From positions 21,005 to 85,004 of the forward strand of contig CAYWLS010000009.1 of assembly GCA_964458605.1 (NCBI GenBank): a DNA stretch of 64,000 nucleotides, in the 5' to 3' direction. The position numbers were made by a program, and so were the translations under genes. The notes under the pieces are model-generated. The model was not told the DNA's origin and searched no databases. It worked only from the letters and a program-made list of their open reading frames with translations. The stretch is from an uncultured Hyphomicrobiales bacterium (GTDB lineage: Bacteria > Pseudomonadota > Alphaproteobacteria > Reyranellales > JAQSWP01). Every line of letters begins with the position of its first letter. Position 1 is the stretch's first letter. Positions 7,751 to 59,313 of this stretch are shown here, piece by piece.

Positions 7751-7770
7751 GGCGCCGACGCCGTCCCGCG

Positions 7771-8544: not shown

Positions 8545-8619
8545 TTGCCGGCTACCCTCCCTGCCGTCAAGCGGCCGCATGGCGGCGCTGCCTTTTCCCT
8601 GCGGTTCGCTGGCCGACGC

Positions 8620-10744: not shown

Positions 10745-10971
10745 CGGCAACCCGCGCGGTGATCTGCTACGGCGATTATAGACGAGACTTGCGGCCGCCA
10801 CGTGGCAATGGTGGCGGACCGTTCCGCAAGCCGGAACCGGGCCGCGCCGCGGCGATTCCTGTTGACAGGAAGCGGCGAAAAAAGTCCTGTATTCAACGTC
10901 GTTGACCGAACGCAGAAGCAAATTCGAGGGTCGAAACAGACCCGCTGGGCAACGACAGCAGGGCGGGAACG

Positions 10972-11844: not shown

Positions 11845-11845
11845 C

Positions 11846-40681: not shown

Positions 40682-42274
40682 ATGTACGACTACATCATCA
40701 TCGGCGCTGGTTCGGCCGGCTGCACCCTGGCCAACCGCCTCACCGAAGACGCCGCCGCCAAAGTGCTGCTGCTGGAAGCCGGCAAGCCCGACAACCACCT
40801 GCTGCTGCGCATGCCGGCGGGCTTCGCCAGCCTGGGCGAGACCTCCCCGTTCAACTGGCGCTACGAGACCGAGCCGCAGAAGCACTGCGACAACCGGCGC
40901 ATGTACTGGCCGCGCGGCAAGACCTTGGGCGGATCGAGCTCGATCAACGCCATGCTCTATATCCGCGGCAACGCCTACGACTACGATCTGTGGCGCCAGC
41001 TCGGCAACGAGGGCTGGAGCTATCGCGAGGTGCTGCCCTATTTCATGAAGGCCGAGAACAACGAACGCGGCGCCTCCGAATTTCACGGCAGCGGCGGCCC
41101 GCTCAACGTCGCCGAACAGATTTCGCCGGCGCCGATCAGCAAGGCCTTCGTCGCCGCCGCCATCCAGTCGGGCCAGAAATCCGTGGCCGATTTCAACGGC
41201 GCCACGCAGGAAGGCTTCGGCCTCTACCAGGTGACGCAGAAGGACGCCAAACGCTGCAGCACCGCGGTCGGCTATCTGCGCCCTGCTCTGACGCGCCCCA
41301 ACCTGACCGCTATCACCGAGGCTTATACGCAGAAGATCCTGGTCGAGAACGGCCGCGCCGTCGGCGTGCGCTACGTCAAGGACGGCAAGGTCGAGGATGT
41401 GCGGGCGGAGCGCGAAGTGCTGTTGTGCGGCGGCGCCGTCAACTCGCCGCATGTGCTGCTGCTGTCGGGCATCGGGCCGGCCGACGAGCTGCGCCAGGTC
41501 GGCATCGACGTGGTGCACGACCTGCCCGGCGTCGGCCGCAACCTGCAGGACCATATCGACGCCGGCATCGTCCAGTTCTGCACCCAGCGCGCTACCTACG
41601 ACACCGCCAACAAGCTTGCTTCGCTGGCCAAATACCTGATCTGGAAGACCGGTCCTGGTACCTCGCCGATCGCCGAATCGGGCGGCTTCGTCAACACCCG
41701 GTCCGGCCTGGCGGCGCCGGACATCCAGTATCACTTCCTGCCGGCGATCGTGCTCGATCACGGCCGCACGCGGCTGGGCAAGAGCGGCTACACGCTGCAT
41801 GCCTGCCTGCTGCGGCCGGAGAGCAGCGGCCGCATCTTCCTGCGTTCGGCCGATCCCAAGGACTATCCGGCGATCGACCCCAACTACCTGGCCACGCGCA
41901 ACGACATGGATACGCTGATCGCCGGCGTGAAGATCGGTCGCGACATCCTGGCGCAAAAGGCGATGGATCCCTATCGCGGCGCGGAGCTGATGCCAGGCGA
42001 CGCGGCGCGCAGCGATGCCGAGATCGAGAAATGGATCCGCGCCAAGTGCGAGACCATCTATCACCCGGTCGGCACCTGCAAGATGGGCAGCGATCCGCTG
42101 GCGGTGGTCGATGCGCAGTTGCGGGTGCGCGGCATCGCGGGCCTGCGCGTGGTCGACGCCTCGGTCATGCCGACCCTGGTGGGCGGCAACACCAACGCCC
42201 CCACCATCATGATCGCCGAACGCGCCGCCGACATGATCAGGATGGCGGCCGGCACGCTCAAGCGGGCGGCCTAG
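40682..42274 (+). CDS. GMC-family flavin oxidoreductase (choline/alcohol dehydrogenase, AlkJ-like)
   Basis: N-terminal FAD motif YDYIIIGAGSAGCTLANRL. Also GKTLGGSSSINAM and the C-terminal HPVGTCKMG. Confidence 0.9.
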   Translation: MYDYIIIGAGSAGCTLANRLTEDAAAKVLLLEAGKPDNHLLLRMPAGFASLGETSPFNWRYETEPQKHCDNRRMYWPRGKTLGGSSSINAMLYIRGNAYDYDLWRQLGNEGWSYREVLPYFMKAENNERGASEFHGSGGPLNVAEQISPAPISKAFVAAAIQSGQKSVADFNGATQEGFGLYQVTQKDAKRCSTAVGYLRPALTRPNLTAITEAYTQKILVENGRAVGVRYVKDGKVEDVRAEREVLLCGGAVNSPHVLLLSGIGPADELRQVGIDVVHDLPGVGRNLQDHIDAGIVQFCTQRATYDTANKLASLAKYLIWKTGPGTSPIAESGGFVNTRSGLAAPDIQYHFLPAIVLDHGRTRLGKSGYTLHACLLRPESSGRIFLRSADPKDYPAIDPNYLATRNDMDTLIAGVKIGRDILAQKAMDPYRGAELMPGDAARSDAEIEKWIRAKCETIYHPVGTCKMGSDPLAVVDAQLRVRGIAGLRVVDASVMPTLVGGNTNAPTIMIAERAADMIRMAAGTLKRAA

Positions 42275-42276
42275 CG

Positions 42277-42552
42277 ATGGCCCTGGTCGACCAGATGGCG
42301 TTGGCGCGCGCCCGCCGCAACGCCGGCCGGCTGCTGCTGGGCATGGGTGTGCTGGCGCTGATCCTGGCGGTGCTGGCGGTGCTGTTCGGCGAACGGATCA
42401 AGCCGATGGGCGATGCCGGCGGCCTGTCGTTCTGGCAGTTGATCGCCATCTGCCTGCTGTTCATCGGCATCGTCGATGGCGGCATCGGCCTGTTCATGAC
42501 CCGCTCGGCGCAACGCGCGCTGGAAGCGCAGACGCCCGGTCCCAAGAGTTGA
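42277..42552 (+). CDS. Small membrane protein (91 aa, two predicted TM helices), unknown function
   Basis: The ATG lies 2 nt after the GMC stop. Hydrophobic segments are LLLGMGVLALILAVLAVLFG and FWQLIAICLLFIGIVDGGIGLFM. GC3 bias is typical of coding sequence. I recognise no homolog. Confidence 0.5.
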   Translation: MALVDQMALARARRNAGRLLLGMGVLALILAVLAVLFGERIKPMGDAGGLSFWQLIAICLLFIGIVDGGIGLFMTRSAQRALEAQTPGPKS

Positions 42553-42558
42553 GAAGCT

Positions 42559-44022
42559 CTACAGGCTGCGCCGCAGCATGAATTTCAGCAGCCGGTCCAT
42601 GCGCGGCCCGTAAGGCGGCCGCAGCAATCCGCCGAGATTGCGCTTGGACTGGTAGAACGTGCCCTTGGCGTGGCTGAAGGTGGCGAAGCCTTCCCAACCG
42701 TGATAGGCGCCGATGCCGCTCGGCCCCACGCCGCCGAACGGCAGATCCTCGGCCGCCACATGATAGAGCGTGTCGTTGATCGTGACGCCGCCTGAGGTAG
42801 TGCGTGCCAGCACGCGGTCGGTCAGGTTGGCATCGTCGCTGAACAGATAGAGCGCCAAGGGCCGGGGGTGGCGGTTGATGTAATCGATGGTCTCGTTGAG
42901 GTCGTCGTAGCCCTTGACCGGCAGCAGCGGCCCGAAGATCTCCTCCTGCATCACCGCCAGCCTATCGTCGGGATCGAGCAGCAGGGTGGGCGCGATCTTG
43001 CGCTGGTTGCTCAAGCTCTCCTCGCCGCTGGCGAGTTCGATCACCTCGACGCCCGACTGCCTCGCCTCCTCGGCCAGTCGCTGCAGGCGCTGGTAGTGCC
43101 GGTCCGACACGATGGCGGTGTAGTCCGGATTGGATGCCAGCGTGGGATAGAGCCTGGCCGTCGTGGCTCGCGCCTTGGCGACGAAATCCTGCTGCCTGGC
43201 ACGCGGCACGAACACGTAGTCCGGCGCGATGCAGGTCTGGCCGGCATTGAGCAGCTTGCCCGCGACGATGCTCTGCACCGCCTTGTCCAGCGGATAGTCC
43301 GGCGCGACGATGGCCGGCGACTTGCCGCCCAATTCCAGCGTCACCGGCACCAGGTTGGCCGCCGCCGCCTGCATCACCCGCCGCCCGATCGACGTCGAGC
43401 CGGTGAACAGCAGATGATCGAACTTCAGGCGGCTGAACGCCTCGCCGATCTCCGGTCCCCCGGTCGCCACGACGATCTCGCTGGGATCGAAAGTCTCGGC
43501 GACCATGCGCTTGAGCAGCGCCGAGCTGCGAGGCGTCAGTTCGGACGGCTTGAGCATGACGCGATTGCCGGCGCCGATCGCCGCTACCAGGGGCGACAGC
43601 GCCAGGTAGACCGGATAGTTCCAGGGCGAGATGATGCCCACCACGCCCAGCGGCTGGTAATGCACCCGCGCCTTGGCGAAGGTGAACTTGGTGCGGTCGA
43701 GCGGCCGCTTCTGCGGCCTCATCCAGCGCTTCAGGTGCTTGCGGGTGTGCCGCACCGTCTCCAGCGACGTCAGCACCTCGGCCAGCATGGTCTCGTGCGC
43801 CGAGCGGTTGCCGAAATCCTCGCCGACGGCGCGCACGATATCGTCGCGGAACTTCACGATCATGCGCTGCAGCTTGTCCAGCGCCGCGACGCGCAACTCG
43901 AGCCCGGGCGGGCCGGCGCGCAGGAACGCCTCGCGCTGGCGGGCCAGCAGCGCGTCCAGATCGGTGCCCGCGGGCGCGGCGGCCAGGGATGCGACGGCAG
44001 GCATGGAAGCAGCAGACGACAT
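42559..44022 (-). CDS. Aldehyde dehydrogenase (class-3 / coniferyl-aldehyde-DH-like, AlkH-like role)
   Basis: Starts MSSAASMPAV. Motifs LELGGKSP, FTGSTSIGRRV, catalytic-Cys region NAGQTCIAPDY and EEIFGPLLPV. Confidence 0.9.
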   Translation of the reverse strand: MSSAASMPAVASLAAAPAGTDLDALLARQREAFLRAGPPGLELRVAALDKLQRMIVKFRDDIVRAVGEDFGNRSAHETMLAEVLTSLETVRHTRKHLKRWMRPQKRPLDRTKFTFAKARVHYQPLGVVGIISPWNYPVYLALSPLVAAIGAGNRVMLKPSELTPRSSALLKRMVAETFDPSEIVVATGGPEIGEAFSRLKFDHLLFTGSTSIGRRVMQAAAANLVPVTLELGGKSPAIVAPDYPLDKAVQSIVAGKLLNAGQTCIAPDYVFVPRARQQDFVAKARATTARLYPTLASNPDYTAIVSDRHYQRLQRLAEEARQSGVEVIELASGEESLSNQRKIAPTLLLDPDDRLAVMQEEIFGPLLPVKGYDDLNETIDYINRHPRPLALYLFSDDANLTDRVLARTTSGGVTINDTLYHVAAEDLPFGGVGPSGIGAYHGWEGFATFSHAKGTFYQSKRNLGGLLRPPYGPRMDRLLKFMLRRSL

Positions 44023-44134
44023 GACGGATCCTCGGGTTTCCCGGCGGTCCTTGACCCGCCGGCAAGCGGCCACACATAGTAACTTAAAATGGCCGTCATG
44101 CAGCGGCCATCGGGGTTACGGGAGGCAGGGTCGA

Positions 44135-45853
44135 ATGTCGAACTATGTGTGGGAAAAGAGCTATCCGCCGGGCGTGACGTGGGAAATCGACATTCCGCGC
44201 CAGACCCTGCCGGAGGTGCTGGACGACAGCGCCGCCAAATACGGCGACCGGCCGCTGGTCGACTTCCTCGACAAGGTGATGAGCTTCGCCCAGATCAAGG
44301 CCCTGTCCGACCGGGCGGCGCTGGGCTTCCAGAAGCTGGGCGTCAAGCCGGGCTCGCATGTCGGCCTCTATCTGCCCAACACGCCGCACTACCTGATCGC
44401 CTTCTTCGGCATCCTCAAGGCCGGCGGCGTGGTGGTGAATTACAGCCCCCTCGACGCCGAGCGCGAGCTGGAACACAAGATCGAGGACAGCGAGACCGAC
44501 ATCCTGGTCACGCTCGATGTCGTCGCGCTCTATCCCAAGATCGCGCCCAAGCTCAAGACCACGCGGCTGAAGAAGCTGATCGTCGGCAGCATCGCCGACT
44601 ATTTGCCCTGGCCCAAGAACTGGCTCTATCCGATCGCCAAGAAGAAGGACATCGCAAGCTGGCCGCGCGATTCCCAGCACATGAGCTTCAAGGAACTGCT
44701 GGCCAATGACGGCAGCTACGCCAAGCCGCCCAAGCCGGCCGATCTGTGGGACGCCATCGCGCTGCTGCAATATACCGGCGGCACCACCGGCCTGCCCAAG
44801 GCCGCCATGCTGACCCATGGCTGCATCATGGCGGCGATGACGCAAGGCCAGGCCTGGACCCGGCCCTACACCAACCCGGGCACCGAAAAGGTCGTGTGCG
44901 TGCTGCCGCTATTCCATATCTACGCGCTGTCCGGCGTCATGCTGGGCGCGGTGCAGAACGGCAACCAGCTCATCCTCTATCCGCGGCCCGACATCGACCA
45001 GATCGTCAAGGACCTGGACAAGAAGAAGCCCACCTTCCTGCCCGGCGTGCCGACGCTCTACACCGCGATCAGCAACCACCCCAAGGCCAAGGAACTCGAT
45101 CTCAAATCGCTGAAGATCTGCCTGTCGGGCGGCGCGCCGCTGCCGGTCGAGGTGCAGCAGAAATTCGAGCAGCTCACGGGCGCCACCCTGATCGAGGGTT
45201 ACGGCCTGACCGAGACCTCGCCCACCGGCTGCCTGTGCCCGATCGACAAGAGCGTGCGCCGGCTGGGCTCGTGCGGCGTGCCGGTGCCCGGCACGGTGAT
45301 CGAGATCCGCGACCTCGACGACCCCACCAAGAAGCTGCCGATGGGCAAGGATCACATCGGCGAGGTCTGCATCATCGGCCCACAGGTCATGAAGGGCTAT
45401 TGGAAGAAGCCGGACGAGACCGCCCAGGTGCTGTTCCCTTCCGGCATCTCCAACTGGAGCCGGCTGCATACCGGCGACACTGGCTATATGGACCAGGACG
45501 GCTGGGTCTATCTGGTCGACCGCAAGAAGGACCTGATCATCTCCTCGGGCTTCAACGTCTATCCGCGCGTCATCGAAGAAGCCTGCTACGAGCACCCTGC
45601 CGTCGACGAGGTGATCTGCATCGGTATTCCCGACCAGTATCGCGGCGAGGCGCCCAAGGTGTTCATCAAGCTGAAGCCGGGCAAGACCTTGACCTTCGAC
45701 GAGCTGAAAAAGCATCTCGAGGGCAAGATCGGCAAGCACGAGATGCCGGTGGCGATGGAGATCCGCAACGAACTGCCCAAGACGCCGGTCGGCAAGCTGT
45801 CGAAGAAGGAGCTCAAAGCCGAGGAGCAGGCCAAGGCCCGGAGCGCGGCCTGA
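44135..45853 (+). CDS. Long-chain fatty-acid--CoA ligase (FadD/AlkK-like)
   Basis: GGGAGG Shine-Dalgarno. Starts MSNYVWEKSYPPGV. Motifs YTGGTTGLPKAAMLTH, EGYGLTETSP, HTGDTGYMDQDGW and PKTPVGKLSKKEL. Confidence 0.9.
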   Translation: MSNYVWEKSYPPGVTWEIDIPRQTLPEVLDDSAAKYGDRPLVDFLDKVMSFAQIKALSDRAALGFQKLGVKPGSHVGLYLPNTPHYLIAFFGILKAGGVVVNYSPLDAERELEHKIEDSETDILVTLDVVALYPKIAPKLKTTRLKKLIVGSIADYLPWPKNWLYPIAKKKDIASWPRDSQHMSFKELLANDGSYAKPPKPADLWDAIALLQYTGGTTGLPKAAMLTHGCIMAAMTQGQAWTRPYTNPGTEKVVCVLPLFHIYALSGVMLGAVQNGNQLILYPRPDIDQIVKDLDKKKPTFLPGVPTLYTAISNHPKAKELDLKSLKICLSGGAPLPVEVQQKFEQLTGATLIEGYGLTETSPTGCLCPIDKSVRRLGSCGVPVPGTVIEIRDLDDPTKKLPMGKDHIGEVCIIGPQVMKGYWKKPDETAQVLFPSGISNWSRLHTGDTGYMDQDGWVYLVDRKKDLIISSGFNVYPRVIEEACYEHPAVDEVICIGIPDQYRGEAPKVFIKLKPGKTLTFDELKKHLEGKIGKHEMPVAMEIRNELPKTPVGKLSKKELKAEEQAKARSAA

Positions 45854-46159: not shown

Positions 46160-47179
46160 GTGTCTGTAAAGGATTCGATTTCCGCGGCGGACGATCACAA
46201 ACGCACGCTGCGTGGAATCGCCTTCGATCAGCAGGTCATCGTCGGCGTCTTGTTCGCCGTCATCTTCGTGGGATTTTCCCTGGCCCTGCCGGGGTTTTTC
46301 ACCATCGGCAATCTTTTCACGCTGATGCGCACGGTGGCCGTGCTCGGCATTCTCGGCCTGGGCATGGCGATCGTGGTGATCGGCCGCGGCATCGACCTGT
46401 CGATGATCGCCTCGCTGGCGGTGCCGTCGGCCGTGGTCCTGGCCGTTGCCGGGGCCGGCTACGGCGTCGGCGTTTCGCTGGCCGCCGGCCTGGCCTTCGC
46501 CGTGGTGATCGGCGTGATCAACGGCTTCCTGGTCGCCTATGCGGAAATCCCGCCGCTGTTCACCACCCTGGCGGTCGGCATCGGCGTCGCCGGCATCGGC
46601 CAGAGCGGCCTGTTCGAATACGAGATCGTGCCGTGGCCACCCAGCCTCAACGCCATCGCCTGGATCGGCCAGGGCACGATCGCGGGCATTCCCTACTCGG
46701 TGATCGCCTTCGGCGCGGCAGCGATCGTGGTCTGGATCCTGCTGCGACGGACGCGGCTGGGCATCTTCGTCTATTCGGTCGGCGACAATCTCAATGCGTC
46801 GCGCATCGCCGGCATCCCGGTGCGGCCGATGGTGGAGCTGCAATATATCCTGTCCTCCTGCATCGCCCTGTTCGCCGGACTGGTGCTGTCGGCGTCGTCC
46901 TCCAACATGGACACCCGCATCTTCAACCTGACCTGGATCTACGACGTGATCCTGGTGGTGGTGCTGGGCGGCATCGGCCTGTCGGGCGGGCGCGGCGGCG
47001 TGCTCAACGTGCTGCTGGGAACGTTGCTGATCGGCACCATCGTCAACGGCATGACCATTCTCGACATCTCCTTCGAGATGCAGAACTTCATCAAGGGAAT
47101 GGTTCTTCTGGCGGCGCTGTCGCTGGACAGCGTCATCAACCCACGCAACGAGGAAACCGCGCAGCAGGGAGACATCTGA
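46160..47179 (+). CDS. CUT2 (ribose-type) sugar ABC transporter permease
   Basis: GTG start, 339 aa, polytopic. Contains VIGRGIDLSMIAS and the conserved loop GLSGGRGGVLNVLLG. Confidence 0.85.
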   Translation: MSVKDSISAADDHKRTLRGIAFDQQVIVGVLFAVIFVGFSLALPGFFTIGNLFTLMRTVAVLGILGLGMAIVVIGRGIDLSMIASLAVPSAVVLAVAGAGYGVGVSLAAGLAFAVVIGVINGFLVAYAEIPPLFTTLAVGIGVAGIGQSGLFEYEIVPWPPSLNAIAWIGQGTIAGIPYSVIAFGAAAIVVWILLRRTRLGIFVYSVGDNLNASRIAGIPVRPMVELQYILSSCIALFAGLVLSASSSNMDTRIFNLTWIYDVILVVVLGGIGLSGGRGGVLNVLLGTLLIGTIVNGMTILDISFEMQNFIKGMVLLAALSLDSVINPRNEETAQQGDI

Positions 47180-47236: not shown

Positions 47237-48247
47237 ATGAGGAAATTCGGTACGATAGCGGCTGCGGCGATGGCGCTGGCCTGGATGGTGGCCGGCGGCA
47301 TGGCGCATGCCCAGCAAAGCATGAACGATCCGGCCCGCGACGCCTATTACGACACCTTCAAGAATAAGAAGGTGGTGTTCGTTCCCGTCTTCATGGGCCT
47401 CGACCTCACCGAGGGCTGGTCGAAGATGATGGCCAAGCAGGCCGCCGCGCTGGGCTACAAATACGAGGTGCGCAACTCCAACTTCAACACCGCCGCCGGC
47501 GCCCAGACGCTGACCTCGCTGATCAGCGAGAAGCCCGACGTCATCGTCGTGCAGAATCCCGACGTCCAGTCCTATGCCCGTCTGCTGGCCGAGGCGCAAA
47601 AGGCCGGCATCCACGTCATCCAGCTCAACATGAAGACCAACACGCTGACCTACGGCTTCGTCGGCGCCGACGTGATCGAGATCGGCGAGCTGCAGGCCAA
47701 GGCGGTGGCCGCCAAGTGCGGCGCCGGCACCTCGGGCAAGGTGCTGATCCTCACCGGCCCGCCGACCAGCCCGTTCTCCGCCTATATGCTGAAGGGCTAT
47801 CAGAACATCCTGGACAAGGACAAGAACATCAAGGTGGTGTCGGTCCAATCGACCGGCGACTACGAATCGGCCAAGGCCAAGTCGATCACCCAGGTGGTGC
47901 TGCAGCAGAACCCCGATCTGTGCGGCGTGCTGGGCATCTGGGACAACACCGATGTCGGCACGGCTGCCGCCATCAAGGAGGCCGGCAAGAGCAACCAGGT
48001 GTTCGTGTCGAGCTCCGGCGGCGGCGGCGAGCTGGCCTGCAAGGGCATCCGCGAGGGCCTGTGGCAGCACTATGTCAGCTACGACGTGCCGGGCCAGGCG
48101 CGCGACCTGCAGAACCTGATCTCGGCGGCGCTGCAGGACAAGAACGCGATCGGCACCACCAAGAACATCCTCTACACGCCGCTTGTCGAATACACCAAGG
48201 ACAATATCGACAAGCAGTTCTGCTGGACCTTGGACACCATCCGCTAA
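47237..48247 (+). CDS. Sugar ABC transporter periplasmic binding protein (PBP1/LacI-type fold)
   Basis: GGAGGGAGAAAAC Shine-Dalgarno region. Signal peptide MRKFGTIAAAAMALAWMVAGGMAHAQQ. Alternating beta-alpha pattern (KKVVFVPVFMGLD ... DVIVVQNPD ... KVLILTG). Confidence 0.85.
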   Translation: MRKFGTIAAAAMALAWMVAGGMAHAQQSMNDPARDAYYDTFKNKKVVFVPVFMGLDLTEGWSKMMAKQAAALGYKYEVRNSNFNTAAGAQTLTSLISEKPDVIVVQNPDVQSYARLLAEAQKAGIHVIQLNMKTNTLTYGFVGADVIEIGELQAKAVAAKCGAGTSGKVLILTGPPTSPFSAYMLKGYQNILDKDKNIKVVSVQSTGDYESAKAKSITQVVLQQNPDLCGVLGIWDNTDVGTAAAIKEAGKSNQVFVSSSGGGGELACKGIREGLWQHYVSYDVPGQARDLQNLISAALQDKNAIGTTKNILYTPLVEYTKDNIDKQFCWTLDTIR

Positions 48248-48342
48248 CCACCGGACCCTATGGGGGCGCCGCATCGCCGGCGCCCCCTTCCCTTGCACGA
48301 AGACCGGCTTTGCGAAGTCCGTCGCCGCGAACGGCTGCATCA

Positions 48343-50451
48343 ATGGCGAACAACTATACCAGGCTGCGCTACAAATACTGGCCCGACCACATCTTCGGCG
48401 AGTTGCTGCAGAAGCAGTGGATGGAGACGGCGGTTCCCCTGCTGGTGCTGGTGGTCACCGTCATCTATTTCAGCTCGCGCATCGACAACTTCATCTCGAT
48501 CTCCAACCTGTCGAACACGCTGCGCCAGGCCAGCGAGCTGGGCTTCGTCGTGCTCGGCATGTCGCTGGTGCTGATCGTCGGCGGCATCGACTTGAGCGTG
48601 GGCTCGACCTTCGCGCTGTGCAATCTGCTGGTTCTCTACTGCATGAACGTGCTGGCGCTGCCGGTCGGCGTCACCATCGTGCTGGGCCTCCTGCTGGGTG
48701 CGTTGCTGGGCGCGGTCAACGGGCTGCTGATCGGCTATATGCGGATGCGCGCCTTCCTGACCACCATGGTGACCCTGATCGTCTACCAGGCCGTCCACCT
48801 GATGTTGAATTTCAAGCTGGCGGTGGCGATCTCCTCCGCAGTTCCCGATTCCGACCTGTGGGACTTCCTGGGCAACGGCTCGTTCCTGTCCATTCCGTTC
48901 GTCGTCTGGGTGTTCGCGGTGGTGGCAGTCGCCAGCCACATCTTCCTGACGCGGCTGCGCGCCGGCTGGCGCGTCATGGCGGTCGGCGGCAATCGCCGCT
49001 CGGCCTACAATGTCGGCCTGCCGGTCAACCGCATCGTCGCCCTTTCCTATGTCGGTTCCGGCATGCTGGTCGCCGTCTCGGCGATCTTCTATGCCTCGCG
49101 GCTGTCCAGCGCCGGCGCCGATACCGGCAAGGGCCTGGAGATCATCGTGCTGACCGCCGCCATCCTGGGCGGCATCCGGCTGGGCGGCGGCAAGGGCTCG
49201 GTTACCAAGGCGATCCTGGGCACCCTGATCATCCTGCTGATCACCAACGGCCTGCTGCGCCTGGCCGTGCCGGCCGGCGCCTCGCGCGTGATCCTCGCCA
49301 CCATCCTGCTGCTGGGCGCCGCGCTCGACATCCGCTGGTTCAAGAACCGGCACAAGGCGGTCGAGGAATTCTACGTCAGCCCGTCCTATCTCGACCTGCC
49401 GCCGCTGCCCGCCGACGCCACCGGCCCGCAATCGGCCTATGCCGTCAACGACCGGCTGCGGCATGTCGAGACGATCGGCCTGGGCGAAGTCGAGGCCCCG
49501 GAGGACGTCATCCTCGACCAGGACGACAACCTCTATTGCGGCAGCCGGCATGGCGAGATCATCCGCTTCTTCGCGCCCGACTACAAACGCCGCGAAGTCT
49601 ATGCCCGCATCGGCGGCCAGCCGCTCGGCATGACCTTCGACGAACGCAGCAACCTCTATGTCTGCGTCGGCGGCATGGGCCTCTACCGCGTCACGCCCGA
49701 GCGCAAGGTCGAGAAGGTCACCGACGAGACCAACCGCACGCTGTGGTCGGTGGTCGACGACAGCCGCCTGCGCCTGGCCGACGACCTCGATATCGCGCCC
49801 GACGGCCGCATCTTCTTCTCCGAGGCCACCGTGCGCTACGAGATGCACGAATGGCCGACCGACAGCCTGGAAGGCCGCGGCAACGGCCGCATCATCTGCT
49901 ACGACCCGCGCACCGACAAGACCACGACGGTGCTGCGCAACCTGATTTTCCCCAACGGCGTGGTCATCGCCTCCGACAAGCAGTCGATCCTGTTCGCCGA
50001 GAGCTGGAACTGTTCGATCAAGCGCTTCTGGTTCGACGGCCCCAGGGCCGGCCGGGTCGAATTCGTCATCCGCGACCTGCCCGGCTATCCCGACAACATC
50101 AACCGGGCGTCCGACGGCAATTACTGGCTGGCGCTGATGGGCATGCGCTGCCCGGCCTTCGACCTGGCCATGCGCAAGCCCGCTTTCCGCCGGCGCATGT
50201 CGAAGCAGCTTCCCGGCGACGAATGGCTGGCGCCCAACATCAACACCGGCTGTATCGTCAAGTTCGACGAGCAGGGCCGCATCCTCGACGTGATGTGGGA
50301 CGAAGGCGGCGTCAACCACCCGATGATCACCTCGATGCGCGAGCATCGCGGCTATCTCTATATCGGCGGCATCTCCAACAACCGCATCGGCCGCCTCAAG
50401 CTGCCCGGCGCCGACCCGGACTTCGTTTCCAGCAGGCGCCGCCATGCTTGA
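48343..50451 (+). CDS. Fusion protein: CUT2 ABC permease (N-terminal ~335 aa) + strictosidine-synthase-like / SMP30-type beta-propeller (C-terminal ~330 aa)
   Basis: One uninterrupted 702-codon frame. The permease part has VGGIDLSVGS and GGIRLGGGKGSVTKAILG, and its last TM ends in LDIRWFKNRHK. The C-terminal part has LADDLDIAPDGRIFFSEATVRY, GRGNGRIICYDPRTDKTTTVLRNLIFPNGVVIASDKQSILFAESWNCSIKRFWFDGPRAG. Confidence 0.8.
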   Translation: MANNYTRLRYKYWPDHIFGELLQKQWMETAVPLLVLVVTVIYFSSRIDNFISISNLSNTLRQASELGFVVLGMSLVLIVGGIDLSVGSTFALCNLLVLYCMNVLALPVGVTIVLGLLLGALLGAVNGLLIGYMRMRAFLTTMVTLIVYQAVHLMLNFKLAVAISSAVPDSDLWDFLGNGSFLSIPFVVWVFAVVAVASHIFLTRLRAGWRVMAVGGNRRSAYNVGLPVNRIVALSYVGSGMLVAVSAIFYASRLSSAGADTGKGLEIIVLTAAILGGIRLGGGKGSVTKAILGTLIILLITNGLLRLAVPAGASRVILATILLLGAALDIRWFKNRHKAVEEFYVSPSYLDLPPLPADATGPQSAYAVNDRLRHVETIGLGEVEAPEDVILDQDDNLYCGSRHGEIIRFFAPDYKRREVYARIGGQPLGMTFDERSNLYVCVGGMGLYRVTPERKVEKVTDETNRTLWSVVDDSRLRLADDLDIAPDGRIFFSEATVRYEMHEWPTDSLEGRGNGRIICYDPRTDKTTTVLRNLIFPNGVVIASDKQSILFAESWNCSIKRFWFDGPRAGRVEFVIRDLPGYPDNINRASDGNYWLALMGMRCPAFDLAMRKPAFRRRMSKQLPGDEWLAPNINTGCIVKFDEQGRILDVMWDEGGVNHPMITSMREHRGYLYIGGISNNRIGRLKLPGADPDFVSSRRRHA

Positions 50452-51564
50452 CGCTCTCGCCTCGATCGTCGCCTCGGTCTTCAATCGCCGCGGCGCCAGC
50501 CTCTCGGTGCCGATCCTCGACGGCGCCCTGAAGCCGAACAACCTGCTCGAACAGGCGGTGGTGCTGGTCGAGCAGGACGGTCTGGAGGACATCGCGGTCG
50601 GACCCGACGGCGACCTCTATGTCGCTTGCGGCAAGGCGGTGCTGCGCCTGACGGATGGCGGCCAACTGGCGCCGGTGGCGCAGCACGATCATGCCGTGAC
50701 GGCGCTGGCCGTGCTCGGCGACGGCACGCTGGCTGTCGGGCTTGGCACAAGAGTGATGCTGGGCCGGCCCGACGGACGGCCCAGTGACCAGCAGGTCACG
50801 TTCGATCGCGCCGATGGAAAGTCCCTCAACGCCGTCACCGCCCTTCATGCGACGGCCGACGGCGCGCTGCTGGTATGCGATGCATCGGCCACCCGTCCCT
50901 ACGAGGAGTGGCACTACGATCTGATGGAAAAGGGCTGCAGCGGAAGATTGCTGCGCTACGACCCGGCATCGGGCGTGGCGACGACGGCGGCCGCCGGCCT
51001 GGCCTATGCGTTTGGCGCCTTGATGGACCGGCAGGGCCGCGTGCTGGTCTCCGAGACCTGGCGGCATCAGCTCGATCACGCGAAGGCCGGACAGGCCAGC
51101 CCGGTGGTCGCGGCCCTGCCCGGCTATCCCGCGCGCATCGCTCCGGCGCCAGGCGGCGGATTCTGGCTCGCGCTGTTCGCCTGCCGCACCCAACTGGTCG
51201 AGTTCGTGCTGCAGGAGAACGACTATCGCCGCGACATGATGCGCACCATCGAGCCGCGCTACTGGGTCGCGCCGGCGCTGCGATCGGGCGTCGATTTCCG
51301 CGAGCCGCTGCAGACCGGCGGCGTCAAGCAGATGGGCATCCTCAAGCCCTGGGCGCCGCCGCGGTCCTACGGCCTGGTGGTGCGGTTCGACGACGACTTC
51401 ATCCCGCTCTATTCCCTGCACAGCCGGGTCGGCGGCCGCCATCACGGCATCGTGGCGGTGGCCCAGCGCGGCGACGACCTCTACGTCCTGTCCAAGGGCG
51501 CCGGCCGGCTCCTGCGGCTCTCCGTATCCCAGGTCGAAGCGCACGAAGCCGCGGAGGCCGGCGC

Positions 51565-51568
<4 letters not shown>
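50444..51568 (+). CDS. Strictosidine-synthase-like / SMP30-type beta-propeller protein (free-standing, divergent)
   Basis: The ATG overlaps the fusion gene by 8 nt. No signal peptide. Contains DIAVGPDGDLYVA and GCSGRLLRYDPASGVATTAAAGLAYAFGALMDRQGRVLVSETWRHQL, which parallels the Str_synth core of the fused domain. Confidence 0.7.
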
Positions 51569-53058
<1,490 letters not shown>

Positions 53059-53677: not shown

Positions 53678-55293
53678 ATGCCGATCATCGAAAGCCAGAT
53701 CGACCGCAACGCCGACGAGTTCAAGGCCAACCGCGAGGGCATGCTGGCGGCGATCGCCGAATTCCGCGCCGCCGAGCAGGCGGTGCGCGCCACCGCCGAG
53801 AAATCGCGCGAGCGCTTCCGCAAGCGCGGCCAGCTCATGCCGCGCGAGCGGGTCGAGCTGCTGCTCGACCGCGGCTCGCCCTTCCTCGAGCTGATGGCGC
53901 TGGCCGGCTATCGCATGCACGACGACAAGGACGGCAGCGGCGCCGGCGGCGGCGGCGTGGTCGGCATCGGCTATGTCGAGGGCATACGCTGCATGGTGTC
54001 CGCCTCCAACAGCGCCGTGAAGGGCGGCACCATCTCGCCCGCCGGTTTGCGCAAGAGCCGGCGCATGCAACAGATCGTCATGGAAAACAAGCTGCCGATG
54101 GTCAACCTGGTCGAGTCCGGCGGCGCCAATCTGCTCTACCAGTCGGAGATCTTCATCGAAGGCGGCCGCGGCTTCGCCAACCAGGCGCGCATGTCGGCGC
54201 GCGGCATCCCGCAGATCACCGTGGTGCACGGCTCCTCGACTGCCGGCGGCGCCTACCTGCCGGGCTTGAGCGACTACGTCGTCATGGTGCGCAACAAGGC
54301 CAAGGTGTTCCTGGCCGGCCCGCCGCTGTTGAAGGCGGCCACCGGCGAGATCGCCAGCGACGAGGAGCTGGGCGGCGCGGAGATGCACACCACCGTCTCC
54401 GGCGTGGCCGAGTTCATGGCCGAGGACGACGCCGACGGCATCCGCGTGGCGCGCGAGATCCTGCGCAAGATCCCGTGGAACGAGAGCTGCCCGCCGGTGG
54501 CGGTCAAGCCCTACAGCGAGCCGCTCTACGACATCGACGAGCTGGTCGGCGTGGTGCCGCCCGACTACCGCAAGCCCTACGACGTGCGCGAGGTGATCGC
54601 CCGGCTGGTCGACGGCTCGGACTTCCTCGACTTCAAGGCGCTGTTCGACCAGCAGACCGTCTGCGGCTGGGCATCGCTGTGCGGCCACAGCATCGGCATC
54701 ATCGGCAATAACGGCCCGATCACCACGCGCGGCGCGGTCAAGGCGGCGCAGTTCATCCAATTGTGCTGCCAGGCCGGCACGCCGATCGTCTACCTGCAGA
54801 ACACCACCGGCTACATGGTCGGCACCGAGAGCGAGCGCGGCGGCATCGTCAAGCACGGCTCCAAGATGATCCAGGCGGTGGCCAACGCCACCGTGCCGCA
54901 ATTCACCGTGGTGATCGGCGGCAGCTTCGGCGCCGGCAATTACGGCATGTGCGGCCGCTCCTACGATCCGCGCTTCATCTTCGGCTGGCCCAACAGCAAG
55001 ACCGCGGTGATGGGCGGCGAGCAGGCGGCCAAGGTGATGTCGATCGTCACCGAGGAGAAGTTCAAGCGCGACGGCAAGCCGGTCGACCGCGCTGCGCTCG
55101 ACATGATGGAGCAGAAGATCGTCGATCAGTTCAACCGCGAATCGACGCCGCTGTTCTCGACCGCGCATCTGTGGGACGACGGGCTGATCGATCCGCGCGA
55201 CACCCGCAAAGTATTGGCGCTCTGCATCTCGGTGGCGCGCGAGGCCGATGTCCGCCCCCTGCACGGCAGCACGTTCGGCGTGGCGAGGATGTG

Positions 55294-55294
<1 letters not shown>
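53678..55294 (+). CDS. Methylcrotonyl-/geranyl-CoA carboxylase carboxyltransferase (beta) subunit
   Basis: 538 aa. Starts MPIIESQIDRNADEFKANREGM. Contains RGQLMPRERVELLLDRGSPFLE, LVESGGANL and STAGGAYLPG. Confidence 0.9.
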
Positions 55295-56454
<1,160 letters not shown>

Positions 56455-56464
56455 GGAAGAACTG

Positions 56465-57625
<1,161 letters not shown>

Positions 57626-57644
57626 TCAAACGCCGAGGGGAGAC

Positions 57645-58457
57645 ATGGCCGCTTTTGCCGACAAGTACGAAACCCTGCTGCTGCGCCAACAGGGCGCCCA
57701 CCTTTACCTGACGCTCAACCGCCCCGAGGCGAAGAACGCGCTCAACCCGACCATGATCGACGAGCTGACCGCGGTGTTCGAGGTGCTGAAATCGCGGCAC
57801 GATATCAAGGCGGTGGTGATGCGCGGCAGCAACGGCGTGTTCTGCGCCGGCGCCGACCTCAAGATCATGGCCCAGATCCAGCCCAAGGTGCCCGGCCAGA
57901 AGGATCCGATCGCGGTGTGGAATCGCGGTTACGGCAAGTTCCTGGAGATGGCGACCAACACCCCGCAGGTGCTGATCGCCGCCATCGAGGGCCACGCCCT
58001 GGCCGGCGGCTTCGGCCTGGCCTGCGTGTCCGACATCGCCATCTGCACCGAGGGCGCGTCCTTTGCCATGACCGAGACCGCCCTCGGCCTGCTGCCGGCG
58101 CAGATCGCGCCCTTCGTCGCCATGCGCATCGGCGTGCCGGCGACCCGCCACCTGACCCTGACCGCCGCCCGCTTCAAAGGCGCCGAGGCGGTGCGCCTGG
58201 GCATCGGCCAGTACCTGGTCAAGGACGGCGCCGAGCTCGACGCCAAGGTCGAAGAAGTGCTGAAGCAGATCGACCGCTGCGCGCCGATGGCCAATGCCCG
58301 CACCAAGGAGATCGTGCTGGCCATCACCAGGATGCCGCTGCCGCAGGTGCTGGACATGGCGGCCGACCTGTTCGCCGAGCAGCTGCGCGGCGAGGAGGCG
58401 CCGGAAGGACTGAAGTCGTTCGCCGAGAAGCGGCCGCCGAAATGGGCCGCTAGCTAA
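57645..58457 (+). CDS. Enoyl-CoA hydratase (methylglutaconyl-/isohexenylglutaconyl-CoA hydratase-like)
   Basis: Crotonase fold with FCAGADLK, GHALAGGFGLACVSDIAI and a catalytic-type Glu in FAMTETALGL. Confidence 0.85.
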   Translation: MAAFADKYETLLLRQQGAHLYLTLNRPEAKNALNPTMIDELTAVFEVLKSRHDIKAVVMRGSNGVFCAGADLKIMAQIQPKVPGQKDPIAVWNRGYGKFLEMATNTPQVLIAAIEGHALAGGFGLACVSDIAICTEGASFAMTETALGLLPAQIAPFVAMRIGVPATRHLTLTAARFKGAEAVRLGIGQYLVKDGAELDAKVEEVLKQIDRCAPMANARTKEIVLAITRMPLPQVLDMAADLFAEQLRGEEAPEGLKSFAEKRPPKWAAS

Positions 58458-58468
58458 GGCCCGTTTCC

Positions 58469-59296
58469 GTGCATCCATCCGCCGCCCCCTTGCCCCGATG
58501 CAAGACGCTCGCGCTCGAGCGTCGCGGCGGGACCTTGTTCGTGACCCTGAACCAGCCCGACACGCGCAATGCGCTGAGCGCGCCGCTGATTGCCGAGTTG
58601 AGCTCGGCCTTCGGCTACGTGGCCGACGATCGCAAGGTCCGCGCCGTGGTGCTGCGCGGCGCCGGCGGCAATTTCTGCGCCGGCGGCGATCTGCGCCAGT
58701 TCGCCGAAGCCGAAGGCACGCCGCCCAAGAGCATTGCCGAAAGCCCGCACTACAAGGGCGCGATCCAGCTCAGCCGGCTGATGCACGACATCAACCTCTC
58801 GCCGGCCGTGGTGATCGGCGCCTTCCAGGGCGCCACCCTGGGCGCCGGCTTCGGCTTCGCCTGCGTGGTCGATATCGCCATTGCCTCCGACGATGCCGTG
58901 TTCGGCATCACCGGCAACATGTTCGGCGTGCCGCCGGGCCCGATCGTGCCGTTCGTGGTCGAGCGACTGGGCCTGCCGCTGGCCCGGCGCCTGGCGCTGT
59001 CGGCCATCAAGCTGGGCGCGCGCGACGCCTTCGCGCTGGGCCTGGTGCATCACCTGACCATGGATGCCGCCGGGCTGGACAAGAAGATCGACGCGGTGCT
59101 GGCCGACGTGCTGCGCTGCGCGCCCGGCGCCAACCGGGTCACCAAGGAATTGCTGCTGCAGTCGCAGCGCCTGCCGGCCGAGCAGATGTTCGAGCTGGGG
59201 GCCAACGCCTTTGCGCGCGCCCTGCACGGCATCGAAGTCAAGGAAGGTACCGCGGCGTTCTTCGACAAGAGACCGCCGCGCTGGAGCGAAGAATAA
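58469..59296 (+). CDS. Crotonase-fold protein (divergent second hydratase/isomerase-like gene)
   Basis: GTG start. Contains FCAGGDLR and GATLGAGFGFACVVDIAI. The position of the first catalytic Glu reads FGITGNMFGV, so no Glu is present there. Confidence 0.75.
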   Translation: MHPSAAPLPRCKTLALERRGGTLFVTLNQPDTRNALSAPLIAELSSAFGYVADDRKVRAVVLRGAGGNFCAGGDLRQFAEAEGTPPKSIAESPHYKGAIQLSRLMHDINLSPAVVIGAFQGATLGAGFGFACVVDIAIASDDAVFGITGNMFGVPPGPIVPFVVERLGLPLARRLALSAIKLGARDAFALGLVHHLTMDAAGLDKKIDAVLADVLRCAPGANRVTKELLLQSQRLPAEQMFELGANAFARALHGIEVKEGTAAFFDKRPPRWSEE

Positions 59297-59313
59297 CAAG
59301 GGGAAATGGGCCA

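What the first reader, a model, noticed from the sequence alone, without database searches (positions are those of the whole stretch)
48343..50451. In-frame fusion of an ABC permease to a strictosidine-synthase-like six-bladed propeller
A single 702-codon ORF encodes both parts. Residues ~1-335 are a complete RbsC-type permease. After the last TM comes the basic cluster RWFKNRHK, which by the positive-inside rule argues that the tail is cytoplasmic. A ~40-aa Pro-rich linker follows (YLDLPPLPADATGPQ). The rest is a domain with the Str_synth core (DDLDIAPDGRIFFSEA...GRIICYDPRTDKTTTVLRNLIFPNGVVIASDKQSILFAESWNCSIKRFWFDG). Tethering an enzyme fold to the translocation pore implies the substrate is processed as it emerges, or that the propeller gates or regulates transport.
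Basis: partly seen in the sequence, partly recalled or inferred. Interest (0 to 1): 0.8.

Follow-up and report, generated by a model that had tools for sequence, protein, structure and literature searches.

The report
Sugar-type importer with fused hydrolase propeller
A membrane subunit of a bacterial nutrient importer is permanently fused to an enzyme-like six-bladed propeller that most likely sits on the inner face of the membrane, always next to a second, degenerate propeller gene, which suggests that cargo is chemically processed as it arrives; nobody has studied this.

Summary
Window 48343-50451 (+) is one 702-codon gene: a 10-helix RbsC-type (CUT2) ABC permease fused to a strictosidine-synthase-like (SSL) six-bladed propeller. 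It is not an assembly artefact. The same architecture appears in more than 120 protein clusters, 46 genome loci and plasmids of cultured isolates.

First, the gene sits in a fixed five-gene cassette: permease 1, binding protein, fusion, a second free SSL propeller (50444-51568), tandem ATPase. Second, the "linker" is largely the SSL_N segment, which in free-standing relatives follows an N-terminal export signal or membrane anchor. Third, the fused propeller keeps the canonical metal-ligand set (E387, D480, N538, D584/N585), while the free paralog has lost most of it.

Helix count, the positive-inside tally, natural permease-ATPase fusions and the lack of a signal peptide on the paralog all place both propellers in the cytoplasm. 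That differs from the exported free-standing relatives.

Best reading (about 45%): a membrane-tethered lactonase/esterase-type hydrolase acts on the imported solute at the exit of the importer. The degenerate paralog would be a structural partner. Substrate, activity and topology are untested. I found no literature on this architecture. I rate it a new variant of a known kind, of moderately high interest.

The parts
46160..47179 (+). Permease 1 of the cassette (339 aa, RbsC/AraH-type, 10 predicted helices, no extra domain)
   Evidence: Pfam BPD_transp_2 8e-28. NCBIfam best hits are RbsC and AraH, below cut-off. It is conserved upstream of the binding-protein gene in the genome loci.
47237..48247 (+). 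Periplasmic solute-binding protein (336 aa from M14; Sec-type signal MRKFGTIAAAAMALAWMVAGGMAHA)
   Evidence: Pfam Peripla_BP_4 6e-41. There is a hydrophobic N-terminal segment. It is called as 336 aa on the independent contig L047. It is only distantly related to solved sugar-binding proteins (best 1.7e-15), so no ligand can be inferred.
48262..48287 (+). Perfect 10-bp G+C hairpin (GGGGGCGCCG/CGGCGCCCCC) in the 95-nt gap between the binding-protein gene and the fusion gene
   Evidence: The z-score for the whole 101-nt spacer is only -1.64, and conservation was not tested. It may be an intercistronic stabiliser or attenuator. This is inference only.
48343..49335 (+). Fusion gene, permease domain (residues 1-331): N-terminal amphipathic helix plus 10 transmembrane helices. 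The cytoplasmic coupling loop is at about residues 203-230.
   Evidence: The AF2 helix list gives H25-46, 53-79, 85-103, 108-132, 136-155, 186-202, 228-254, 261-281, 287-306 and 311-343 (low pLDDT in this half). The K+R tally is 18 on the predicted inside against 6 outside.
49333..49371 (+). Juxtamembrane basic helix RWFKNRHKAVEEF (residues 331-343), a predicted continuation of TM10
   Evidence: Nearly invariant. The AF2 helix 311-343 covers it. It is absent from free-standing SSL relatives, whose anchor helix runs straight into the SSL_N motif.
49372..50451 (+). Fusion gene, SSL_N segment plus six-bladed SSL propeller (residues 344-702). About 20 residues of variable linker lie at 348-368.
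   Evidence: Pfam hits. AF2 pLDDT is 80-93 over the blades. Foldseek matches strictosidine synthases, TGW6, DFPase, SMP30 and bacterial lactonases with TM-score to target 0.67-0.77. The best PDB sequence hit is TGW6 (8kg3) at 9e-27.
49501..49503 (+). Codon for E387, predicted metal ligand 1 (motif APED; GPE in relatives)
   Evidence: Invariant in 46 sequences. Kept in 16 of 19 lineages. Its equivalence to TGW6 Glu-59 rests on the shared motif only (PMC10958001), because that region was not aligned.
49780..49782 (+). Codon for D480, predicted ligand 2 (toggles between D and N among lineages)
   Evidence: It aligns with TGW6 Asn-167 in the HMMER alignment. Conservation is shown.
49954..49956 (+). 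Codon for N538, predicted ligand 3 (motif FPNG)
   Evidence: It aligns with TGW6 Asn-226. Conservation is shown.
50092..50097 (+). Codons for D584 and N585, predicted ligand 4 (motif YPDN)
   Evidence: N585 aligns with TGW6 Asn-272 and D584 with the preceding Asp. Both are invariant.
50444..51568 (+). SSL2: a free 374-aa SSL-type six-bladed propeller with no signal peptide. The ligand set is degenerate (F190, A230, R231 in place of N538, D584, N585). It carries an invariant 28-aa insertion. Its start overlaps the stop of the fusion gene by 8 nt (ATGCTTGA).
   Evidence: Weak Pfam hits to Str_synth and SSL_N. AF2 mean pLDDT is 84.8 and pTM 0.86. Foldseek matches STR and TGW6 with TM-score to target 0.77. 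No hydrophobic segment was found. It lies immediately downstream of the fusion in 39 of 39 loci with enough sequence (in L045 the match covers only half the protein) and in all divergent lineages examined where downstream sequence was available.
51565..53058 (+). Tandem-ABC ATPase (497 aa, RbsA/AraG/XylG type). Its start overlaps the SSL2 stop (ATGA).
   Evidence: Two ABC_tran domains. NCBIfam gives AraG, XylG and RbsA-like hits below equivalog cut-offs.

Best explanation
This is a binding-protein-dependent CUT2-type ABC importer. Its second permease carries a membrane-tethered SSL propeller on the cytoplasmic side of TM10, and that propeller looks like a competent metal-dependent hydrolase of the lactonase/esterase type. 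A second, ligand-degenerate SSL propeller (SSL2) is made from a translationally coupled gene. SSL2 most likely docks as a non-catalytic partner of the complex. Proposed mechanism: a neutral, ring-shaped or esterified solute (a lactone or sugar-like ester) is captured by the sugar-type binding protein and pumped in. It is then hydrolysed at the inner membrane face, next to the exit of the translocation path. The charged product cannot leak back, so it is metabolically trapped. Neighbouring alcohol and aldehyde oxidoreductases and CoA-activating enzymes then take it further. What is shown: the fusion, the five-gene cassette, fold assignments, ligand conservation and gene coupling. What is inferred: cytoplasmic topology (strong indirect support), catalytic competence, the SSL2 partner role, the substrate class and any direct hand-over from pore to active site.
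For: The fusion and cassette are conserved. The order perm1-SBP-fusion-SSL2-ATPase is the same in 46 genome loci, in lineages at 38-47% identity and on plasmids of isolates from Alpha-, Beta- and Gammaproteobacteria. The importer direction follows from the signal-bearing Peripla_BP_4 protein. Cytoplasmic placement rests on five points. (1) The RbsC model is matched to its end by residue 329 and there are 10 helices, and CUT2 permeases are treated as 10-TMS proteins (PMC3654945). (2) K+R counts are 18 inside against 6 outside. (3) No hydrophobic segment follows TM10. (4) Homologous permeases (36-46% identical, collinear through TM10) are fused at the same C-terminus to the necessarily cytoplasmic ATPase with no intervening helix; one of these clusters includes a RefSeq protein from Methylorubrum extorquens. 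(5) SSL2 has no signal or anchor in 58 sequences. Catalytic competence is supported by the ligand set E387/D480/N538/D584-N585. It maps onto TGW6 E59/N167/N226/N272 and the DFPase set E21/N120/N175/D229. It is invariant in the main clade and kept in 16 of 19 lineages. The propeller half is more conserved than the permease half in 41 of 44 loci, with a median of 78% against 74%. The SSL2 partner role is suggested by the 8-nt and 4-nt gene overlaps, by strict co-occurrence, and by invariant segments (N-terminus, residues 284-310) that AF2 leaves unstructured. Pathway context: SDR, ALDH or GMC oxidoreductases flank 36 of 48 loci and CoA-type enzymes flank 20 of 48. An orthologous ALDH+SDR pair abuts the cassette in about 26-31 of 46 loci. 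A degradative HMG-CoA reductase gene abuts the cassette in Shinella. The closest solved relative, TGW6, is an ester hydrolase.
Against: No activity, substrate, topology or complex data exist. Three divergent fused lineages (L078, L080, L082) have lost the ligand set, and their SSL2 does not compensate. One of them has a Lactamase_B hydrolase gene next to the cassette. So hydrolysis by the propeller is not universal, and the propeller may have a structural role. Flanking genes vary widely: acyl-CoA genes, polyol/tetrose-like genes in Pantoea, mobile-element genes. No single substrate is implied. The AF2 model of the permease half is poor (pLDDT 40-70) and gives no reliable domain arrangement. 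No solved relative of the permease exists to check the geometry. Free-standing relatives of the propeller are exported, so a cytoplasmic location is atypical for this clade.
Confidence: 0.45

Rival explanations
1. The two propellers form a non-catalytic module on the cytoplasmic face. It could be a regulatory gate, a ligand sensor for trans-inhibition, or an assembly scaffold. It would play a role like the C-terminal regulatory domains of some ABC ATPases, but attached to the membrane subunit.
For: SSL2 has lost most ligands in every lineage. Three fused lineages lost them too and still keep the whole cassette. The cassette is constant while the flanking catabolic genes change, as expected for a part of the transport machine itself. 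The invariant segments of SSL2 that AF2 leaves unstructured look like docking elements.
Against: The full ligand set is invariant across the large main clade and most other lineages. Position 480 toggles only between D and N, exactly as in active enzymes. Such a pattern is hard to explain without metal binding. The propeller is among the most conserved parts of the system.
Confidence: 0.2
2. The propeller is an ordinary pathway enzyme that happens to be fused for co-expression. An example would be a lactonase acting on the lactone made by the neighbouring glucose-1-dehydrogenase-type SDR from the imported sugar or polyol. There would be no hand-over from the pore.
For: An SDR that passes NCBIfam's glucose 1-dehydrogenase subfamily cut-off (340.9 bits against 215) and an ALDH abut the cassette in many genomes. 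Dehydrogenase plus SGL-type lactonase plus ALDH is the logic of oxidative sugar pathways (established knowledge). Cytoplasmic propeller lactonases are common (one search lists several).
Against: The sugar-acid dehydratases and aldolases of such pathways were not seen in the flanks. A soluble enzyme gains little from a covalent tether with a conserved juxtamembrane helix. This reading does not explain the obligatory second, degenerate propeller. In the window itself the SDR/ALDH pair is absent.
Confidence: 0.2
3. The propeller is periplasmic, like its free-standing relatives. It would process or present the substrate before uptake.
For: 15 of 18 free-standing relatives examined carry an N-terminal signal or anchor directly before the SSL_N motif. 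Eukaryotic SSL/APMAP proteins are extracytoplasmic, and Ca2+ is more available outside the cell (established knowledge).
Against: There are ten helices with the RbsC model ending at residue 329. The K+R bias is 18 to 6, with a +4 cluster right after TM10. No further hydrophobic segment follows. Natural permease-ATPase fusions occur at the same end. SSL2 lacks any export signal.
Confidence: 0.08
4. The fusion is an artefact: a frameshift, a misassembly or a spurious long ORF of a high-GC genome.
For: High-GC DNA produces many long spurious ORFs, for example the 750-aa antisense ORF at 48340-50592.
Against: The same fused protein is found in independent assemblies, 46 species-level genomes and complete plasmids of isolates, with an invariant junction. 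GC3 is 0.91-0.94 in one frame across both halves.
Confidence: 0.01

Closest known systems
CUT2-family ABC importers (TC 3.A.1.2: RbsABC, AraFGH, XylFGH, LsrACDB)
   Same: BPD_transp_2 permeases, a Peripla_BP_4 binding protein with a signal peptide, and one tandem-ABC ATPase of about 500 aa. There are two different permease genes, as in Lsr and Ytf systems.
   Different: Every component scores below the equivalog cut-offs, so no known specificity applies. One permease carries a 360-aa propeller after TM10, and the operon holds an extra propeller gene. I know of no characterised CUT2 system with either feature, and three literature searches found none.
Strictosidine-synthase-like (SSL) hydrolases, e.g. 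rice TGW6 (IAA-glucose hydrolase, PDB 8kg3) and animal APMAP; more widely the PON/SMP30/DFPase/gluconolactonase six-bladed propellers
   Same: The fold matches. Pfam gives Str_synth, SSL_N and SGL. The four metal-ligand positions are present. The SSL_N segment follows a membrane helix, as in anchored relatives.
   Different: The domain is tethered to a transporter and predicted to face the cytoplasm, whereas free-standing bacterial relatives carry export signals or anchors. It has three acidic ligands (E, D, D) where TGW6 has one. Sequence identity to TGW6 and STR is only about 20%. No activity is known.
Peptidase-containing ABC exporters (PCAT/AMS type), with a C39 peptidase fused to the transporter
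   Same: Conceptually the same idea: an enzyme domain covalently fused to the membrane domain of an ABC transporter, on the cytoplasmic side, acting on the cargo in step with transport (established knowledge).
   Different: Those are exporters with a different membrane fold. The enzyme is N-terminal and acts before translocation. Here it is an importer, and the enzyme would act after translocation. There is no homology.
Metabolic trapping after uptake: LsrK phosphorylation of AI-2 imported by the CUT2 Lsr system, PTS group translocation, and enzyme recruitment to a permease (AmpG1-Slt, PMC13507758)
   Same: Uptake is coupled to an immediate chemical step that makes import irreversible or efficient (for AmpG1; the rest is established knowledge).
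   Different: In those systems the enzyme is a separate protein or part of a non-ABC machine. For AmpG1 the coupling is periplasmic and non-covalent. Here the coupling would be covalent, cytoplasmic and hydrolytic.

Membership tests
CUT2 ABC importer (TC 3.A.1.2) | BPD_transp_2 permease(s) with about 10 transmembrane helices | tested here: met
   Both permeases match Pfam BPD_transp_2. The RbsC model is covered over positions 11-317 of 321. The AF2 model has 10 helices. The family is described as 10-TMS in PMC3654945.
CUT2 ABC importer (TC 3.A.1.2) | Periplasmic Peripla_BP_4 binding protein with an export signal | tested here: met
   Peripla_BP_4 at 6e-41. A hydrophobic N-terminal segment ends in AHA.
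CUT2 ABC importer (TC 3.A.1.2) | Single ATPase polypeptide with two ABC domains | tested here: met
   Two ABC_tran stretches are found, and the AraG, XylG and RbsA models are matched end to end.
CUT2 ABC importer (TC 3.A.1.2) | Monosaccharide, polyol or AI-2-type substrate | not testable with these tools
   All equivalog scores fall below their cut-offs. The binding protein is only distantly related to solved ones.
SSL / six-bladed propeller metal-dependent hydrolases (PON, SMP30, DFPase, TGW6) | Six-bladed beta-propeller fold | tested here: met
   AF2 pLDDT is 80-93 over the blades. Foldseek gives probability 1.00 and TM-score to target 0.67-0.77 against STR, TGW6, DFPase, SMP30 and lactonases. 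The same holds for SSL2.
SSL / six-bladed propeller metal-dependent hydrolases (PON, SMP30, DFPase, TGW6) | Four metal-ligand positions (E; N/D; N; D/N) in the central tunnel | tested here: met
   Met for the fused domain: E387, D480, N538 and D584/N585. Not met for SSL2, which has T/N, F and A/R at positions 2-4. Not met for the fused lineages L078, L080 and L082.
SSL / six-bladed propeller metal-dependent hydrolases (PON, SMP30, DFPase, TGW6) | Metal binding and lactonase/esterase activity | not testable with these tools
   This needs purified protein.
True strictosidine synthase (Pictet-Spenglerase) | Catalytic Glu309 in the HFE motif. The residue's identity is from my own knowledge of Rauvolfia STR1. 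| tested here: not met
   In the HMMER alignment to strictosidine synthase 6n5v, the E of ...GEHFEQ... pairs with the invariant T663 and the H with M661. TGW6 is a much better hit than any STR (9e-27 against 5e-17). Caveat: the alignment in that blade is weak (9 bits).
Membrane-anchored, exported bacterial SSL proteins (free-standing relatives) | N-terminal signal or anchor helix directly followed by the SSL_N motif, so the propeller lies outside the cytoplasm | tested here: not met
   In the fusion, TM10 of the permease occupies the position of the anchor but runs outside-to-inside and is followed by an added basic cluster. SSL2 has no anchor at all.

The most novel reading that the evidence does not exclude
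This would be an ABC importer that performs hydrolytic 'group translocation'. The translocation pathway of a type-II-like importer would open directly onto a two-propeller cytoplasmic cap: one active SSL hydrolase fused to TM10 and one degenerate paralog. The solute would then never be free in the cytoplasm in its imported form. The module would have arisen when a normally exported, membrane-anchored enzyme family moved to the inner face of the membrane.
Probability: 0.25. Interest if true: 0.8.

Novelty: new variant of a known kind. Interest (0 to 1): 0.62.

Why it matters
ABC importers are normally regarded as pure pumps. Accessory domains are known on the ATPase (regulation) or as fused binding proteins. 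They are not known as enzyme-like domains on the membrane subunit of an importer. This is a widespread, strictly conserved six-part machine, present in Alpha-, Beta- and Gammaproteobacteria on chromosomes and plasmids. It would be a natural test case for transport-coupled catalysis or metabolic trapping. It would also show how a periplasmic, membrane-anchored enzyme fold can be moved to the cytoplasmic face. It would give a function to a large set of proteins currently named "ABC transporter permease", "SMP-30/gluconolactonase/LRE family protein" or "hypothetical protein". No CUT2 permease had a sequence relative among solved structures in the PDB copy searched. A complex stabilised by two soluble propellers might therefore also be an attractive cryo-EM target.

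Tried and rejected
1. Assembly or frameshift artefact: rejected by the comparative data.

2. Alternative upstream start (GTG 47716, giving 911 aa): rejected. It overlaps the binding-protein gene, and orthologs are 698-706 aa.

3. Literature: three searches for this architecture found nothing relevant. The paper on evolution of SSL function (Hicks et al.) could not be retrieved.

4. Tandem SSL-SSL proteins as 'Rosetta stone' evidence for a fused-propeller/SSL2 pair: rejected. They are eukaryotic (Oxalis, Lingula APMAP).

5. Metagenome scan with the permease-ATPase fusion P0165. It was meant to find split or alternative arrangements. It mostly returned more copies of the normal cassette through the ATPase half. 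The full-length matches at about 40% identity that I inspected (L061, L062) turned out to be separate permease and ATPase genes without SSL neighbours. The topology argument therefore rests on the three predicted fusion clusters, one of which has a RefSeq member.

6. Full-length AF2 to see how the propeller sits on the transporter: the permease half came out at low confidence (pLDDT 40-70), so no arrangement can be read from it.

7. Search for any solved relative of the permease half: none, even at E up to 10.

8. Specific substrates were considered and not supported. Vitamin B6: the B6 ATPase and SDR-type pyridoxal dehydrogenase models scored far below cut-off. Sulfoquinovose and oxidative pentose pathways: no dehydratase or aldolase in the flanks. 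Mevalonolactone: only one suggestive neighbour, in Shinella.

9. Rfam and the promoter/terminator scans gave nothing informative.
Full report
OBSERVATION

Window 48343-50451 (+) is an uninterrupted 702-codon ORF. Pfam finds BPD_transp_2 at residues 56-324 (6e-30), SSL_N at 365-409, Str_synth at 480-566 (8e-19) and SGL at 394-601, all above gathering score. NCBIfam's best match is the ribose permease RbsC. Model positions 11-317 of 321 align to residues 21-329, so the permease is complete and has no extra helix. The score is below the equivalog cut-off. GC3 is 0.94 in the first half and 0.91 in the second, in one frame.

The fusion is not an artefact. The identical protein occurs on an independent assembly. 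The 120 best clusters in the 5.8-billion-protein search (73-98% identity, 668-715 aa) all have the same four Pfam domains. Forty-six species-level genome loci encode it, and 15 plasmid records of mostly cultured strains carry it nearly full length. Residues flanking the junction (R331, W332, K334, N335, R336, K338, Y344-P347) are invariant in 46 aligned sequences. In the library clustered at 50% identity, about a dozen further full-length fused lineages exist at 38-49% identity.

CONTEXT

The gene is the third of five in a fixed cassette:
- permease 1 (46160-47179)
- a Peripla_BP_4 binding protein with a Sec-type signal (47237-48247)
- the fusion
- a free 374-aa protein, here called SSL2 (50444-51568)
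- a tandem-ABC ATPase (51565-53058)

The fusion stop overlaps the SSL2 start by 8 nt (ATGCTTGA). The SSL2 stop overlaps the ATPase start (ATGA). The same order holds in all 46 genome loci. SSL2 lies directly after the fusion in 39 of 39 loci with enough sequence. It also holds in lineages at 38-47% identity. The same order is seen on plasmids of Pantoea sp. At-9b, Celeribacter indicus P73, Sulfitobacter alexandrii, Paraburkholderia sp. 22B1P, Shinella sp. HZN7 and Rhizobium sp. ACO-34A.

SSL2 gives only weak Pfam hits and is mostly annotated "hypothetical protein". AlphaFold nevertheless predicts a confident propeller (pLDDT 84.8, pTM 0.86). Its best structural matches are strictosidine synthases and TGW6, with TM-score to target 0.77.

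THE PROPELLERS

The fused domain is modelled at pLDDT 80-93. It matches strictosidine synthases, TGW6, DFPase, luciferin-regenerating enzyme, SMP30 and bacterial lactonases. By sequence the closest solved protein is rice TGW6, an IAA-glucose ester hydrolase (9e-27).

[quoted passage not shown] Counting through the HMMER alignment, Asn-167 pairs with D480, Asn-226 with N538 and Asn-272 with N585, with D584 before it. Glu-59 corresponds by motif (GPE/APE) to E387. All five residues are invariant in 46 sequences. They are kept in 16 of 19 lineages down to about 51% identity in this domain. Position 480 toggles only between D and N.

The pattern matches DFPase E21/N120/N175/D229, the residue set named in the PDB titles. 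The catalytic Glu of true strictosidine synthase (the HFE motif, from my own knowledge) aligns with the invariant T663. The domain is therefore SSL-type and hydrolase-like, not a Pictet-Spenglerase.

SSL2 differs. It keeps the first acidic position. It has T/N, then F/Y/other, then A/S, and an almost universal Arg at the positions of D480, N538, D584 and N585. It also carries an invariant 28-residue insertion (EPLQ-G-VKQMGILKPWAPPRSYG) and a conserved N-terminus. AlphaFold leaves both unstructured. That pattern is typical of docking segments, though this is inference.

Three divergent fused lineages (L078, L080, L082) have lost the ligand set in the fused domain as well. One of them has a metallo-beta-lactamase-fold gene next to the cassette.

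TOPOLOGY

The AF2 model, although poor in the membrane half (pLDDT 40-70), gives an N-terminal amphipathic helix and ten long helices. The last helix runs 311-343 through the basic cluster. With those helices, K+R counts are 18 on the N-terminal side and 6 on the other, including +4 right after TM10. No hydrophobic segment follows. CUT2 permeases are treated as 10-TMS proteins related to BtuC (PMC3654945).

Three protein clusters are homologous permeases, 36-46% identical to the permease half and collinear through TM10. They are fused at this same C-terminus to the ABC ATPase through a hydrophilic 50-70-residue spacer. One of these clusters includes a RefSeq protein from Methylorubrum extorquens. 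The ATPase must be cytoplasmic, so this C-terminus is cytoplasmic. SSL2 has no signal peptide or anchor.

It remains untested experimentally, and no solved relative of the permease exists for comparison.

A RELOCATED ANCHORED ENZYME

The propeller's nearest free-standing relatives (33-38% identical) start with a basic N-terminus and a hydrophobic helix of about 20 residues. This helix is followed directly by the SSL_N motif (P-x-P-I-D-P-x-x-W-x-P-P...L-x-G...P-N). This holds for 15 of 18 examined. That is a signal peptide or signal anchor, which would place the propeller outside the cytoplasm, as with eukaryotic SSL/APMAP proteins.

In the alignment, TM10 of the permease occupies the position of that anchor, and the basic cluster RWFKNRHKA is an insertion after it. 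Only about residues 348-368 are variable. The fusion appears to have moved an anchored, exported enzyme fold to the inner face while keeping its position close to the membrane.

WHAT IT LIKELY DOES

The binding protein makes this an importer. Its substrate is unknown. Every transporter component falls below NCBIfam equivalog cut-offs, and the binding protein is only remotely like solved sugar binders.

Flanking genes vary, with recurring themes:
- An orthologous aldehyde dehydrogenase plus an SDR abut the cassette in about 26-31 of 46 loci. The SDR passes the glucose 1-dehydrogenase subfamily cut-off.
- SDR, ALDH or GMC oxidoreductases occur in the flanks of 36 of 48 loci, and CoA-type enzymes (acyl-CoA ligase, CoA-transferase, acyl-CoA dehydrogenase, hydratase) in 20 of 48.
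- In the window, a GMC oxidoreductase, an ALDH and an acyl-CoA ligase lie upstream. The ligase's best hit is dicarboxylate-CoA ligase PimA, below cut-off. An acyl-CoA carboxylase/dehydrogenase/hydratase cluster lies downstream.
- In Shinella, a degradative HMG-CoA reductase gene abuts permease 1.
- In Pantoea, the flanks look like tetrose or polyol catabolism.

My best reading (about 45%) is that a neutral cyclic or esterified solute is imported and hydrolysed at the inner membrane face by the tethered propeller. The solute could be a lactone, or a sugar-like ester of the kind TGW6 cleaves. The charged product would be trapped, then oxidised and CoA-activated by the neighbouring enzymes. SSL2 would be a non-catalytic partner. 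The propeller half is more conserved than the permease half in 41 of 44 loci, which argues that it is central to the system rather than an appendage.

RIVALS

(a) A non-catalytic regulatory or scaffolding cap (about 20%). Ligand loss in SSL2 and in three fused lineages favours it, as does the constancy of the cassette against changing flanks.
(b) An ordinary pathway lactonase fused only for co-expression, acting after the neighbouring dehydrogenase (about 20%).
(c) A periplasmic propeller (about 8%).
(d) An artefact (about 1%).

COMPARISON AND NOVELTY

The transporter meets the defining features of a CUT2 importer. The fused domain meets the fold and ligand criteria of the SSL/PON/SMP30/DFPase hydrolase superfamily. 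It fails the one strictosidine-synthase criterion I could check. It differs from its free-standing relatives in lacking an export signal.

Functionally the nearest concepts are peptidase-containing ABC exporters (an enzyme fused to an ABC membrane domain) and metabolic trapping after uptake (Lsr/LsrK, PTS). Recruitment of an enzyme to a permease (AmpG1-Slt, PMC13507758) is also related. None of these is homologous or an importer with a fused cytoplasmic hydrolase.

The architecture is present in public databases under automatic names. Three full-text searches found no study of it. I rate it a new variant of a known kind, with interest 0.62.

Noticed in passing
window 48262-48287: A perfect 10-bp G+C hairpin sits in the 95-nt spacer between the binding-protein gene and the fusion gene. 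It may set the expression ratio between binding protein and membrane subunits. Its conservation in other loci was not checked.
   Followed up: partly
window 53678-61296: Directly downstream of the cassette lies a cluster of a carboxyltransferase, two acyl-CoA dehydrogenases, two enoyl-CoA hydratases and a biotin carboxylase with a biotinyl domain. The layout resembles the leucine/isovalerate (Liu) or acyclic-terpene (Atu) acyl-CoA carboxylase clusters. No NCBIfam equivalog cut-off is reached.
   Followed up: partly
window 40682-45853: Upstream of the cassette are a GMC oxidoreductase (passes the choline-dehydrogenase subfamily cut-off), a divergently oriented aldehyde dehydrogenase and an acyl-CoA ligase. 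The ligase's best hit is dicarboxylate-CoA ligase PimA, below cut-off. Together they form an alcohol-to-acid-to-CoA module.
   Followed up: partly
L078 8001-13512 (Rhizobiaceae MAG, JAMLJB010000002.1): In a lineage whose fused propeller has lost all metal-ligand residues, a Lactamase_B-fold hydrolase gene and a GMC oxidoreductase follow the cassette directly. This may be a functional replacement of the hydrolase.
   Followed up: partly
L087 4579-6920 (Shinella sp. HZN7 plasmid pShin-02): A degradative HMG-CoA reductase gene ends exactly where permease 1 of the cassette starts (5904). This hints at a mevalonate or mevalonolactone-type substrate in that strain.
   Followed up: no
L081 (ENA contig_50), flanks of 5793-12681: Here the five-gene cassette, preceded by a TetR-family regulator gene, is flanked by transposase fragments and a relaxase/MobC pair. 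The cassette also sits on many plasmids, mostly typed non-mobilizable. It is therefore often carried on accessory or mobile DNA.
   Followed up: no
P0165, P0187, P0256/P0391 (not in the window): Rare CUT2 permease-ATPase single-chain fusions exist (845-868 aa), including RefSeq WP_458032496.1 of Methylorubrum extorquens. Permease-permease fusions also exist (P0179, P0183).
   Followed up: partly
window 48340-50592 (- strand) and 48183-50531 (+ strand, other frame): ORFs of 750 and 782 codons overlap the fusion gene in other frames. They are typical spurious ORFs of 66% G+C DNA and have no homology support.
   Followed up: partly
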